Source of the DNA: a virus
Taxonomy: Duplodnaviria; Caudoviricetes
DNA: 34,973 nucleotides
IMG/VR virus record: IMGVR_UViG_3300022670_000534
Span: 1 to 34,973 of that record
Strand: one strand, 5' to 3'
Below the pieces are notes generated by a model. That model was not told the DNA's origin. It saw only the letters and a list, made by a program, of their open reading frames with translations, and searched no databases. This document shows, piece after piece, positions 24,998 through 30,171 of this stretch; the first letter of the stretch is position 1, and each line of letters opens with the position of its first letter. The translations under genes were made by a program, and so were the position numbers.

Positions 24998-25198
24998 TTA
25001 ATGTAATCCTCCACTATTGTCAGGTTGTTCTTCGTTGTCGACATCTTGAATTTCTATTTTTATCAAACCTTTTTCATAAGCGGTGAAAAATGCATGGCCC
25101 GCTACCAACCCTGGATCACTAATTTCATCTTCGTCGAATTGTATAGTGATATCTACGTATTCTTTACCTATTGATATCCTGACTTTCTTCCTTTTCAC
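24998..25198 (-). CDS. hypothetical protein
   Basis: GTGA-coupled to the upstream gene. Confidence 0.55.
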   Translation of the reverse strand: MKRKKVRISIGKEYVDITIQFDEDEISDPGLVAGHAFFTAYEKGLIKIEIQDVDNEEQPDNSGGLH

Positions 25199-25638
25199 GA
25201 TATAACCTTACCGGTTTTAACATCTATAACTTGAATCTTACCGCCTGAATAAATATCACGTGTCATTGCGTATTCAACGGCTTGCTTTGCACCTTTCCCT
25301 AAGTCCATAGCCGCTAGAGCTAATTCACTGCCAGACCCTTGTGCTTCATTAAAAGACAACTCAAAGTGCTCACAATAACCATCATTGTTAACAGATACTT
25401 CGTAACATTTCCCTCCCGATATTAATAAAGCTGAGCAATTTGGGATTGGGTCAACTTTGTCATTGTGCTTTAAATTACATAGGTCTTTGGTATCAGTAGC
25501 TTTTCCGCAAAAAACCCATGTTCCATGCTCATTTTTCATTGTCTTATCGAACGTGTCGCACTTAACTAGTCCATAACTCACCATCCGACTATCAACTGCT
25601 ATCTGTCCGTCCTGATAATGAAAAGCGATGGTGGTCAT
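25195..25638 (-). CDS. Ntn-hydrolase, HslV/proteasome-beta-like peptidase
   Basis: N-terminal MTTIA nucleophile, AVDSR, GSGS-x-x-ALAAM and DIYSGG. Confidence 0.85.
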   Translation of the reverse strand: MTTIAFHYQDGQIAVDSRMVSYGLVKCDTFDKTMKNEHGTWVFCGKATDTKDLCNLKHNDKVDPIPNCSALLISGGKCYEVSVNNDGYCEHFELSFNEAQGSGSELALAAMDLGKGAKQAVEYAMTRDIYSGGKIQVIDVKTGKVIS

Positions 25639-26103: not shown

Positions 26104-26133
26104 AGTTTATTATACGTCAAAGGGACAATGCTG

Positions 26134-26481
26134 TTAAGCAGCAGTATCCAGTACTTTGACTGATTTTTCAGATAACCAGGTAACTAATGATTTAGAAAAC
26201 TCTTCAGTGCCGTATTTCTTAACCATTCTGGCGATGTTTTCCAAATTTGGGGCTGTTTTTGGATCATCTTCCATTTGGCGATAGGTTCGGCCTTTGAGGT
26301 ATCCGTAAGCGATATGGGTATCACGGGCTTCAGCTCGTAATGGGCCACGGCGATGGTCACGTAATGGGTTGGCAAGACTGCACCAGTTTTTACCTTTGAG
26401 TTTTAACTCTTGAGCACGGATAATTCGCGATTCAGCTGCGAGTGATTTTACTTTCATTTTTAATGCAAATAAGTTCAACAT
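26134..26481 (-). CDS. basic hypothetical protein
   Basis: 115 aa, R/K-rich, with an EARDTHIAYGYLKGRTY motif; flanked by tRNA-like elements. Confidence 0.75.
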   Translation of the reverse strand: MLNLFALKMKVKSLAAESRIIRAQELKLKGKNWCSLANPLRDHRRGPLRAEARDTHIAYGYLKGRTYRQMEDDPKTAPNLENIARMVKKYGTEEFSKSLVTWLSEKSVKVLDTAA

Positions 26482-26536
26482 AATATTTTCTCTACTTAAT
26501 GGAATAAATTAATTTTTGGTACTACTTCATTAAGGG

Positions 26537-26573
26537 TTAAGGTGGGTCTTTATTGCATTCAGGTGAATCGCAT
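26537..26573 (-). other. putative leader mini-ORF M-R-F-T-[UGAA]-C-N-K-D-P-P-stop
   Basis: AAGGAG-6nt-ATG; frame 0 stops at TGA (26561-26559); +1 frame continues TGC AAT AAA GAC CCA CCT TAA. Confidence 0.45.
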
Positions 26574-26598
26574 GTTGTTCTCCTTATGGTTAAATTAG

Positions 26599-26668
26599 TG
26601 GAGGCATTAAGCAGATTCGAACTGCTAAGGCTTGGGGTTGAAATCCCAGACTTCACCGATGTAATGCC
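26599..26668 (-). tRNA. non-canonical tRNA-like gene: no D-arm, 8-nt anticodon loop, encoded CCA
   Basis: GGCATTA/TAATGCC 7-bp acceptor, T discriminator, CCA; perfect T-arm AGCAG-TTCGAAT-CTGCT; TGGG-ATTTCAAC-CCCA arm; 70 nt. Confidence 0.75.
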
Positions 26669-26669
26669 A

Positions 26670-26894
26670 TTATTTATCCTTTGACTTGTTTTTCTTACAT
26701 TTTAGATACATATTAAGCAGATTATTAGCGATGAATGTCAAACCACCAATCATTGATATTAATAAAGCCCAATCAGGCATCCCCCAATCAGCCATGAGCC
26801 AACTATTACTTAACTCTATCACTTCGGCCTCGTCGCTGACTTTTAATCCAACGGTTGTAATTATAGAGCTAGCGCCAATTGTGTTATTTATCAT
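26670..26894 (-). CDS. holin-like membrane protein
   Basis: Hydrophobic WALLISMIGGLTFIA segment followed by a basic C-terminus (KKNKSKDK). Confidence 0.5.
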   Translation of the reverse strand: MINNTIGASSIITTVGLKVSDEAEVIELSNSWLMADWGMPDWALLISMIGGLTFIANNLLNMYLKCKKNKSKDK

Positions 26895-29415: not shown

Positions 29416-30171
29416 TCATAAAAATTCATGTTTTAAAATTGCTTCGCCTATCATTTTCGGTATTGCGGGTAATAATGAATTACCATATTGTTTTACTGCT
29501 CTACGTGCCAGCCTTGTGGGTATCCCATCACCCAACAATAGACTGAGGCAGTTTGTTTGCCATTCATTCCCGACATGTATGATTCTGTCGCCAAACTTGG
29601 CGTATGCCGTTCTTTTGACGCGTTGTAGGCTGAACCCTTCAAAGATACATCTTTGTGGTCTCTGGCATTTGGGGTAGGCAATAACCCAGACCCTATCTCT
29701 GTGATGGGGCGCGCCAAGTTCGGAAGCTGATATACAATGCCATTCTGCATCATACCCGACCTCGGCCAAGTTATAGAGAAACTGAGCAAACCATCGTCCT
29801 GATTCTCCAGTAAGCAAACCTGTGACATTTTCAAAGATTGCGTATCGTGGCAAACACTCGCTAATAATACGCAGCATTTGCCTGTATAAATTAGTTTTTT
29901 CTCCTTCGATACCACACCTATATCCCGCGACTGACACGTTTTGACAGGGGAATCCTCCACAAACAACGTCAATTGATCCTTTATATTTTTTTGCATCTAA
30001 AAGTCTCACATCTTTATATATTAATTTTTCGGGCCAGTGTTTTTTCAATACTTCCCTGGCATGCTTATCGAATTCACAAAAAGCGACTGTTTCAAACCCA
30101 TTGGTACTTTCTAGACCTAAACTAAACCCACCTATACCAGAAAATAAATCCAAAACTTTTAATTTATTCAT
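29416..30171 (-). CDS. C5-cytosine DNA methyltransferase, large (alpha) subunit
   Basis: Motif I LDLFSGIGG, IV GGFPCQ, VI FENV, VIII PHHRDRVW, X YGNS; no motif IX. Confidence 0.92.
   Translation of the reverse strand: MNKLKVLDLFSGIGGFSLGLESTNGFETVAFCEFDKHAREVLKKHWPEKLIYKDVRLLDAKKYKGSIDVVCGGFPCQNVSVAGYRCGIEGEKTNLYRQMLRIISECLPRYAIFENVTGLLTGESGRWFAQFLYNLAEVGYDAEWHCISASELGAPHHRDRVWVIAYPKCQRPQRCIFEGFSLQRVKRTAYAKFGDRIIHVGNEWQTNCLSLLLGDGIPTRLARRAVKQYGNSLLPAIPKMIGEAILKHEFL
29493..29996 (-). CDS. nested alternative-frame C5 methyltransferase small (beta) subunit
   Basis: 167-aa ORF wholly inside the MTase gene; LLPTPNARD and motif-IX-like CWVMGYPQGW. Confidence 0.7.
   Translation of the reverse strand: MQKNIKDQLTLFVEDSPVKTCQSRDIGVVSKEKKLIYTGKCCVLLASVCHDTQSLKMSQVCLLENQDDGLLSFSITWPRSGMMQNGIVYQLPNLARPITEIGSGLLPTPNARDHKDVSLKGSAYNASKERHTPSLATESYMSGMNGKQTASVYCWVMGYPQGWHVEQ

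What the first reader, a model, noticed from the sequence alone, without database searches (positions are those of the whole stretch)
26537..26668. D-arm-less tRNA-like gene with an 8-nt anticodon loop complementary to UGAA in the adjacent leader: candidate natural quadruplet-decoding or antisense switch
Seen: perfect acceptor stem, T-arm and CCA; the D-arm is replaced by about 12 nt; the best anticodon arm is TGGG-ATTTCAAC-CCCA, which centres UUCA. The leader starting 25 nt downstream contains in-frame UGAA. The element's GGUGAA is also complementary to the UUCACC immediately before that UGAA. Known: tRNAs with 8-nt loops (sufA-type) cause +1 frameshifts; c4/CI RNAs use two single-stranded patches to bind targets. 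Inference: a cognate RNA and leader pair working either by four-base decoding or by bipartite antisense pairing. A degenerate tRNA-Glu(UUC) or opal (UCA) reader is also possible, and a 4-6 nt match alone could be chance.
Basis: partly seen in the sequence, partly recalled or inferred. Interest (0 to 1): 0.85.

Follow-up and report, generated by a model that had tools for sequence, protein, structure and literature searches.

The report
Natural four-base-codon tRNA gates phage gene
A marine phage carries a stripped-down tRNA gene with an 8-base anticodon loop matching a UGAA in the tiny reading frame next to it; across about a hundred distant phage loci the loop size, anticodon, stop word and reading frame change together, so the tRNA likely reads a four-base codon to switch on the next gene, something I found described only for engineered or mutant tRNAs.

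Summary
The element (26668-26599, minus strand) is one part of a three-part phage cassette: odd tRNA; leader M-R-F-T-UGAA whose +1 frame gives C-N-K-D-P-P-stop; 115-aa basic protein of no known family (4,087 clusters at 50% identity). In 101 homolog clusters with both parts picked automatically, 89 pair as UGAA/+1 with an 8-nt UUCA loop (69), UAGA/+1 with 8-nt UCUA (10) or UAG/frame 0 with 7-nt CUA (10). The frame so reached ends in R-x-P-P arrest motifs (93 of 113) on the strand predicted to hide the next gene's ribosome site; in three clusters the recoded stop lies inside the protein gene itself. Likely mechanism: four-base decoding, stall, gene on. Against: nothing is tested at the bench, this copy has K-D-P-P and a weak hairpin, six clusters break the rule, the tree cannot prove independent switches, charging and protein function are unknown. 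The scan met the amber triplet form before on other DNA; I found no earlier quadruplet form there or in ten paper searches.

The parts
26599..26668 (-). tRNA gene with reduced D-arm, 8-nt anticodon loop, U73 and encoded CCA
   Evidence: sequence; RF00005 19.9 bits; homologs
26637..26644 (-). 8-nt anticodon loop A32-U33-UUCA-A37-C38; four-base anticodon 26642-26639
   Evidence: this loop occurs in 22 of 101 8-nt-loop family tRNAs
26650..26661 (-). 12-nt replacement of the D-arm, holds GGUGAA
   Evidence: 15 nt or less in 41 of 81 +1-class tRNAs, 0 of 11 frame-0 tRNAs
26580..26585 (-). ribosome-binding site AAGGAG of the leader
   Evidence: kept in L001
26537..26573 (-). leader ORF M-R-F-T-[UGAA]-C-N-K-D-P-P-stop when UGAA is read as one four-base step
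26558..26561 (-). UGAA, the predicted four-base codon; frame-0 backup stop UAA two codons later (26554-26552)
26540..26551 (-). K-D-P-P codons, variant of the family R-x-P-P stalling motif
26495..26534 (-). inverted repeat (arms 26534-26523 and 26506-26495) between leader and gene; predicted hairpin next to the gene's ribosome site
   Evidence: I25; folding
26134..26481 (-). 115-aa basic all-helical protein ending in Ala-Ala, the controlled gene; no known family

Best explanation
This is a phage tRNA gene with an 8-base anticodon loop (UUCA) that likely reads the UGAA in the adjacent leader as one four-base codon, which would move the ribosome into the +1 frame, pause it at the Pro-Pro end of the leader and so uncover the ribosome site of the next gene. 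Shown by sequence comparison: the three parts travel together, and anticodon, loop size, stop word and frame match. Inferred: the RNA is processed and charged; it competes with release factor 2; without it ribosomes stop at UGA and the gene stays off. Purpose (weakest step, about 45%): a two-key lock and delay, in which the gene needs both its mRNA and enough mature tRNA from the same transcript, so leaky transcription or ordinary host read-through cannot produce a short-lived, probably RNA- or ribosome-binding effector. Alternatives for the protein: negative feedback on the tRNA (about 30%), a helper that charges or delivers the D-arm-less tRNA (about 15%), other (10%).
For: (1) Blind pairing, leader and tRNA picked separately: 89 of 101 clusters on the diagonal (69 UGAA/+1 with UUCA 8-nt; 10 UAGA/+1 with UCUA 8-nt; 10 UAG/0 with CUA 7-nt); 96 of 102 after 9 hand corrections; 75 of 81 among loci found through the protein alone. 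(2) Register test classed by leader only: Watson-Crick pairs at the three loop-side positions, UGA/+1 n=71: 67, 68, 63 for the 8-nt loop, 8, 56, 33 for 7-nt UCA, 20, 57, 33 for 7-nt UUC; UAG/+1 n=10: 10, 9, 8 against 2, 7, 2 and 1, 8, 1; UAG/0 n=11: 7, 10, 10 for 7-nt against 4, 4, 3 for 8-nt. (3) From the RNA side: 36 of 41 pattern hits that fold with an 8-nt loop have the protein gene in the locus, 1 of 32 that fold with a 7-nt loop (p=3e-14; loci of 3 kb or more). (4) R-x-P-P in 93 of 113 leaders; RGPP, RAPP, RSPP, RDPP, the four commonest, are the arrest-supporting, proteome-depleted motifs of PMC12992588. (5) Predicted cost of opening the gene's ribosome site falls from 10.1 to 4.7 kcal/mol (median, n=113) when a footprint moves from the stop to Pro-Pro; relief over 2 kcal in 85 of 113 against 9 of 113 shuffled. 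(6) Recoded stop inside the protein gene, which has no other start: L175, L417 (UGAA, +1, UUCA 8-nt), L390/L373 (UAG, frame 0, CUA 7-nt): tRNA active means protein on. (7) Tandem gates: two UAGA/+1 in L331, two UAG in L206 (read by eye). (8) Frame-0 backup stop before Pro-Pro in 62 of 94 +1 leaders, 27.7 expected. (9) Prediction met: phage NCTB, whose leader has UGAA/+1, holds an unannotated short-D tRNA with the same loop 2.6 kb upstream. (10) A32/C38, as here, is the change that improved an engineered UAGA reader in PMC8481270. (11) Protein ends in Ala-Ala in 45 of 146 against 19 of 829 neighbours; median pI 10.1 against 7.0.
Against: No expression, charging, decoding or stalling was measured. 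This copy has K-D-P-P; PMC12992588 found Arg irreplaceable in ApcA/ApdA, so the pause here would have to be a weaker Asp-Pro-Pro/Pro-stop type (recalled). Its predicted hairpin relief is small: 0.2-0.9 kcal/mol for a narrow ribosome site, 1.7-2.9 for a wide one. Six of 102 clusters break the rule: 8-nt loop with frame-0 leader (L118, L372), 7-nt UCA with +1 leader (L379; L400 and L411 look like mis-calls), UUUA with UGAA (L187). L204 and L404 look like +1 fusions at UGAU and UAAC with no tRNA found. The protein tree is poorly resolved: only 3 and 4 independent pairs on supported branches, none opposite, sign test not significant. Acceptor stems and base 73 vary, so no synthetase can be named. 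The phage keeps UGAA as stop signal in 8 of 55 ORFs. One of five records searched for a distant tRNA had it (four were fragments).
Confidence: 0.75

Rival explanations
1. Same switch, but not true four-base pairing: the tRNA reads three bases (GAA in the +1 frame through UUC, or UGA through UCA followed by slippage during translocation).
For: UUCA, UCUA and UUUA each equal a sense anticodon (Glu, Arg, Lys) plus A, and UGAA, UAGA hold GAA, AGA (sequence). Two 8-nt-loop tRNAs go with frame-0 leaders (L118, L372). Engineered UAGA readers show fourth-position crosstalk (PMC8481270).
Against: The fourth base is A in 94 of the 97 well-scored +1 leaders (the three others were mis-picks on inspection) but varies in frame-0 leaders; the 8-nt register wins by compensatory changes. 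Sequence cannot separate the two atomic mechanisms.
Confidence: 0.1
2. The family works as described, but this copy is decayed (no D-arm, Lys for Arg, weak hairpin) and the gene is made by leak or not at all.
For: Sub-threshold tRNA scores; K-D-P-P; small predicted relief.
Against: Short D-regions occur in 41 of 81 +1-class tRNAs; C-N-K-D-P-P recurs in L001 and L123/L384, whose proteins fall in other 70% clusters; listed differences in strain variants fall in the variable loop, spacer and codons 2 and 4 and after Pro-Pro, none in 26561-26540 or the anticodon arm (differences near contig ends are not listed).
Confidence: 0.08
3. Bipartite antisense RNA of the P1 c4 / P4 CI kind that pairs with the leader through GGUGAA and the loop.
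For: 6-bp (window) and 9-bp (L001) complement between D-region and leader; tRNA-like shape and position just upstream of the target resemble c4/CI (recalled).
Against: No family-wide excess of pairing; no C4 or other antisense family even at E up to 10; cannot explain why loop size tracks the frame of Pro-Pro or of the protein; tRNA lies over 260 nt upstream or downstream in 48 of 101 cases. May survive as a minor folding alternative in this lineage.
Confidence: 0.04
4. The RNA acts uncharged: it occupies the A site at UGAA as a decoy or release-factor competitor and the stall occurs there.
For: No conserved synthetase identity, D-arm loss, CCA encoded in only 59 of 101.
Against: Conserved R-x-P-P up to 11 codons beyond the stop and in-gene stops need peptide-bond formation past it.
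Confidence: 0.03

Closest known systems
Frameshift-suppressor and engineered quadruplet tRNAs (sufA/SufJ, recalled; qtRNA-UAGA series, PMC8481270, passages read)
   Same: 8-nt loop, four-base anticodon matching stop-plus-A, competition with a release factor, A32/C38 in an improved variant
   Different: Those are mutants or constructs with a full cloverleaf; here natural, widespread, often D-arm-reduced, with a dedicated leader target, mostly UGAA
RAPP/RGPP regulatory arrest peptides (ApdA, ApdP, ApcA, SecM; PMC12992588, PMC10951233, passages read)
   Same: Short upstream ORF ending in R-x-P-P, predicted to open the downstream ribosome site; phage leaders with C-I-R-A-P-P match the ApdP end quoted in PMC10951233
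   Different: Arrest is reached only past a stop codon and a frame change; input is a tRNA, not membrane pulling force; leaders are 6-20 codons; this copy has Lys for Arg
prfB (RF2) +1 autoregulatory frameshift (recalled)
   Same: +1 shift at an in-frame UGA that competes with RF2
   Different: No slippery CUU codon (ACC here; ACC, ACG, AAC commonest); a dedicated tRNA covaries with the site
Amber-gated arrest leaders with phage CUA tRNA
   Same: Same logic; the UAG/frame-0 class of my own loci (11 clusters)
   Different: Those are triplet, frame 0; the four-base +1 class is the majority here and was not among those notes
P1/P7 c4 and P4 CI antisense RNAs (recalled)
   Same: tRNA-like RNA directly upstream of the gene it controls
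   Different: No Rfam match, no conserved second pairing patch, frame dependence
Vischeria mitochondrial tRNA-X with expanded loop, once proposed to read an in-frame UAA (PMC13060386, passages read)
   Same: Natural odd-loop tRNA proposed to read a stop
   Different: There the expanded loop is reported as an exception among strains; no frame change, no leader switch

Membership tests
Canonical tRNA (RF00005) | Acceptor stem, T-arm, CCA | tested here: met
   7/7 and 5/5 pairs, CCA
Canonical tRNA (RF00005) | D-arm, 7-nt loop, score above cut-off | tested here: not met
   12-nt D replacement, 19.9 under 29 bits, ARAGORN none
Quadruplet-decoding (frameshift-suppressor) tRNA | 8-nt anticodon loop | tested here: met
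   family register test; single copy favours it by 2.7 kcal/mol
Quadruplet-decoding (frameshift-suppressor) tRNA | Cognate four-base codon whose +1 frame is the meaningful one | tested here: met
Quadruplet-decoding (frameshift-suppressor) tRNA | Aminoacylated and causes +1 shift in cells | not testable with these tools
   no assay possible
RAPP/RGPP arrest peptides | R-x-P-P core | tested here: not met
   this copy is K-D-P-P; family 93 of 113 R-x-P-P
RAPP/RGPP arrest peptides | Stall footprint opens the downstream ribosome site | tested here: inconclusive
   strong in the family, weak and window-size dependent in this copy
RAPP/RGPP arrest peptides | Measured ribosome arrest | not testable with these tools
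   needs toeprinting
c4/CI antisense RNA | Match to an Rfam antisense model | tested here: not met
c4/CI antisense RNA | Two single-stranded patches that covary with the target | tested here: not met
   permutation test
prfB-type programmed frameshift | Slippery P-site codon before UGA | tested here: not met
   ACC here; family counts
tRNA-Sec | Long variable arm, 13-bp acceptor/T stack, 7-nt UCA loop (features recalled) | tested here: not met
   5-nt variable loop, 7+5 pairs
tRNA-Glu(UUC) | 7-nt loop register with UUC | tested here: not met
Any known family or fold for the 115-aa protein | Profile or structure match | tested here: inconclusive
   no hit in PHROGs, Pfam, NCBIfam (best strays E 3e-4), PDB sequences; fold searches give only generic helical hairpins, best Z 7.0, rmsd 2.2, 68 aligned

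The most novel reading that the evidence does not exclude
Phages have long used a dedicated four-base genetic code word: a family of natural, often D-arm-less tRNAs that read UGAA or UAGA as quadruplets, interchangeable with amber/opal triplet suppressors, to license a short-lived protein of a large unknown family through an arrest-peptide switch.
Probability: 0.7. Interest if true: 0.95.

Novelty: categorically new. Interest (0 to 1): 0.9.

Why it matters
Four-base decoding is treated as a laboratory construct; a natural, evolved and widespread case would change that view and supply a large library of evolution-tuned quadruplet tRNAs, with their leaders, for genetic-code expansion and for studying how ribosomes keep frame. 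It would also show bacterial ribosomes using D-arm-reduced tRNAs, explain many odd phage tRNA calls (Glu, ???, Pyl, SeC, or missed altogether as in NCTB), and point to a 4,000-cluster protein family whose expression phages lock this tightly. The cassette is under 550 bases and testable in E. coli.

Tried and rejected
No tRNA call by ARAGORN and no Rfam family at cut-off. blastn of the region against GenBank phages gave only chance pieces. A T-arm pattern scan gave 94 loci, one homolog. Promoter scan no better than shuffles (7 against 8.7). Antisense model rejected at family level. Genome-wide recoding rejected: UGAA still ends 8 of 55 ORFs with only short +1 tails, and only one such leader is in the window. 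No conserved fourth gene: the commonest neighbour cluster is in 5 of 150 loci; RtcB (L001), an RF-1 domain gene (3 loci), tRNA_bind (3 related loci), TROVE (1) are sporadic, so an RNA-repair operon model was dropped. Fold and Atlas searches gave no usable relative. No RNA holder listed among sequencing runs. Host not determined; capsid nearest to P22-like proteobacterial phages at 45% or less. No complex prediction was run: no specific partner was indicated. Ten paper searches found no description of the system; the library lacks most subscription papers and I read no supplements.

Full report
Setting. The window is a whole 34,973-base virus record of a P22-like tailed phage (portal, terminase, capsid, adaptor, ejection genes), held by a marine sediment run that may be its source. 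The element lies on the main coding strand between a holin-like membrane gene (26894-26670) and an unannotated 115-aa ORF (26481-26134), upstream of the packaging genes.

Observation. All stated features are present. Standard tools miss or under-score it and the single copy folds only modestly better than shuffles.

How the family was found. The 115-aa protein led to one close locus, L001, with the same RNA and leader, and to 10 GenBank records of 4 phage groups whose annotations put odd tRNAs (Sup-CTA, Pyl, Val) beside the gene. Scans with protein alignments gave 80 of 91 viral, 8 of 8 genome and 80 of 294 metagenome loci; RNA-pattern scans gave 18, 120 and 14 loci. A profile found the gene in 237 of 421 sequences, which fall into 150 clusters at 70% identity. 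The family has 4,087 representatives at 50% identity with E up to 0.001. Cellular records include Rhizobium leguminosarum and Polynucleobacter, Enterobacterales, Planctomycetota and Anaerolineales bins.

Covariation. A script chose the leader (start, up to 12 codons, stop, then Pro-Pro within 8 residues in any of three frames) and, separately, the nearest tRNA whose best-folding loop complements a stop. Of 150 clusters, 101 had both; 49 lacked one or both (many loci are short). 89 of 101 lie on the diagonal: UGAA/+1 with UUCA in an 8-nt loop 69, UAGA/+1 with UCUA 8-nt 10, UAG/0 with CUA 7-nt 10. On inspection several of the 12 others were longer leaders beyond my limit (L097, L100, L172), a near tie (L143) or a double gate (L331). 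After 9 hand corrections, made knowing the tRNA, and dropping rows with weak leaders or short proteins, 96 of 102 fit; among loci found by the protein alone 75 of 81. Six remain off: L118 and L372 (8-nt loop, frame 0), L379, L400, L411 (called 7-nt, +1; L400 was excluded from the 8-nt class by my pyrimidine-33 filter, L411 has the consensus 8-nt loop with a weak stem), L187 (UUUA with UGAA). To avoid circularity I classed loci by leader only and counted pairs in each register; the 8-nt loop wins in both +1 classes, with G-C, C-G, A-U and U-A all used, and the 7-nt loop wins in the frame-0 class. From the RNA side, the same 12-base loop patterns catch ordinary Glu and Arg tRNAs, a built-in control: 36 of 41 hits folding as 8-nt loops have the gene nearby, 1 of 32 folding as 7-nt loops; 29 short loci were left out of that test (12 of 19 and 0 of 10). 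On a protein tree the classes are scattered (9 and 11 changes for the two minor classes, at least 3 and 4 forced by supported branches), but the tree has 53 of 99 forks open and independent-pair tests cannot reach significance. The Fisher values ignore kinship.

What the shifted frame does. 93 of 113 well-scored leaders end in R-x-P-P (RGPP 41, RAPP 25, RSPP 13, RDPP 12). PMC12992588 (passages and section 8 read) reports RGPP and RAPP as versatile arrest cores, RDPP and RSPP as partly permissive and depleted from proteomes, and Arg as irreplaceable. PMC10951233 (passages) places R-A-P in the P site and Pro in the A site. Pro-Pro lies mostly 50-76 nt before the gene start. Masking a 31-nt footprint at Pro-Pro instead of at the stop lowers the predicted cost of opening the ribosome site from 10.1 to 4.7 kcal/mol (medians; shuffled spacer 6.0 to 5.5); relief exceeds 2 kcal in 85 of 113, shuffled 9 of 113, and goes the wrong way by over 1 kcal in 6. 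In the window the effect is weak (0.2-2.9 kcal depending on the target), in L001 3.1-4.3. The direction is fixed independently by clusters in which the recoded stop sits inside the protein gene, with no other start: L175 and L417 (UGAA, protein continues in +1, UUCA 8-nt) and L390/L373 (UAG, frame 0, CUA 7-nt); two similar cases without a tRNA (L204, L404) do not fit the code words, and other rows of that list have their own start. Frame 0 after the stop is closed by a second stop in 62 of 94 +1 leaders against 27.7 expected under uniform synonymous recoding, as at 26554-26552 here, so ordinary UGA read-through would not reach Pro-Pro.

A test of prediction. Phage NCTB (LT598654.1) has the UGAA/+1 leader but no tRNA in my locus; a search of the record found a short-D, CCA-ending RNA with the same loop 2.6 kb upstream, unannotated; its G/C run leaves the register ambiguous by itself. 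The four other records searched, all incomplete, had no match to the pattern (one of them, L155, is UAGA-class and would not match it).

The RNA. D-regions of 15 nt or less occur in 41 of 81 +1-class and 0 of 11 frame-0 tRNAs. Base 73 and acceptor pairs vary (U 41, G 33, A 23, C 4 of 101), so the amino acid seems not to matter and the synthetase is unknown. Engineered UCUA tRNAs on many scaffolds decode UAGA, compete with RF1, cause little fitness cost, and one improved by C32A/A38C (PMC8481270, passages), which makes the proposed chemistry plausible and counts against the tRNA being a toxin.

The protein. Predicted all-helical, a long hairpin plus three short helices (pLDDT 85), invariant Arg/His/Glu, basic, ending in Ala-Ala far above background, which resembles the ssrA degradation signal (recalled). 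No family or fold match. No other gene is conserved in the cassette. I favour a tightly locked, delayed, short-lived effector because stop word and amino acid are interchangeable, gates can be doubled (L331, L206), and I found no other target in this genome; feedback on the tRNA, negative or positive, is not excluded.

Rejected readings. Antisense pairing, tRNA-Glu or Sec, prfB-type slippage, genome-wide recoding.

Novelty. Ten searches of open papers found no such system; nearest were engineered quadruplet tRNAs, RAPP peptides, a review of synthetic UAG-gated control (PMC6412442, listing only) and a mitochondrial odd-loop tRNA (PMC13060386, passages). Subscription papers and supplements were not seen. 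Seven earlier unchecked notes of this scan describe the amber triplet form on other DNA and an eighth a UGA-ended leader before a small basic protein; my reading was formed before I saw them, and no note held the UGAA or four-base form. c4/CI, prfB, sufA, tRNA-Sec features and the ssrA signal are recalled, not from a call.

Verdict. Real feature; likely a natural quadruplet-decoding tRNA gating an arrest-peptide switch (0.75); interest 0.9.

Noticed in passing
window 26606-26617 and 26712-26723: Exact 12-nt direct repeat: the 3' side of the T-arm and acceptor stem is copied inside the upstream holin-like gene (D8); changed at three places in a strain variant.
   Followed up: partly
window 26675-26686: A strain variant in the same sample carries 649 other bases between the holin-like gene and the tRNA, as L001 does; the cassette's 5' edge is a variable site.
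   Followed up: partly
window 29416-30171 and 29493-29996 (-): Two long overlapping ORFs in different frames both match DNA methyltransferase PHROGs (363/116 and 1008), like split methylases with an overlapping small subunit.
   Followed up: no
L001 3473-4693: RtcB RNA ligase directly after the family gene in the closest homolog; absent from the window.
   Followed up: partly
L128, L357, L364; L097, L100, L218; L157; L340: Neighbours with RF-1/PCRF domains, tRNA_bind domain, TROVE, and an Acb2/Tad1 hairpin domain (only one member of the RF cluster was scanned).
   Followed up: partly
L118 2312-2388 (Agrobacterium phage OLIVR1): tRNA annotated as Val has a perfect 5-bp stem and 8-nt loop with CCUA; leader has Pro-Pro in frame 0 after UAG and a second stop UAGG whose +1 frame runs open into the gene start (read by eye).
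   Followed up: partly
L100, L097: Two 8-nt-loop UUCA tRNA genes in one locus.
   Followed up: no
L209, L274, L398, L407, L177, L239: Leaders ending R-x-P-stop, R-x-P-C or similar instead of R-x-P-P after UGAA/+1 (read by eye); not counted in the tables.
   Followed up: partly
window 25195-25638 (-): HslV-family peptidase homolog (phrog_1040) three ORFs downstream of the controlled gene.
   Followed up: no
window 26109-26137 (-): Best sigma-70-like promoter match of the region (11 of 12) right at the end of the controlled gene, pointing into the next genes.
   Followed up: no
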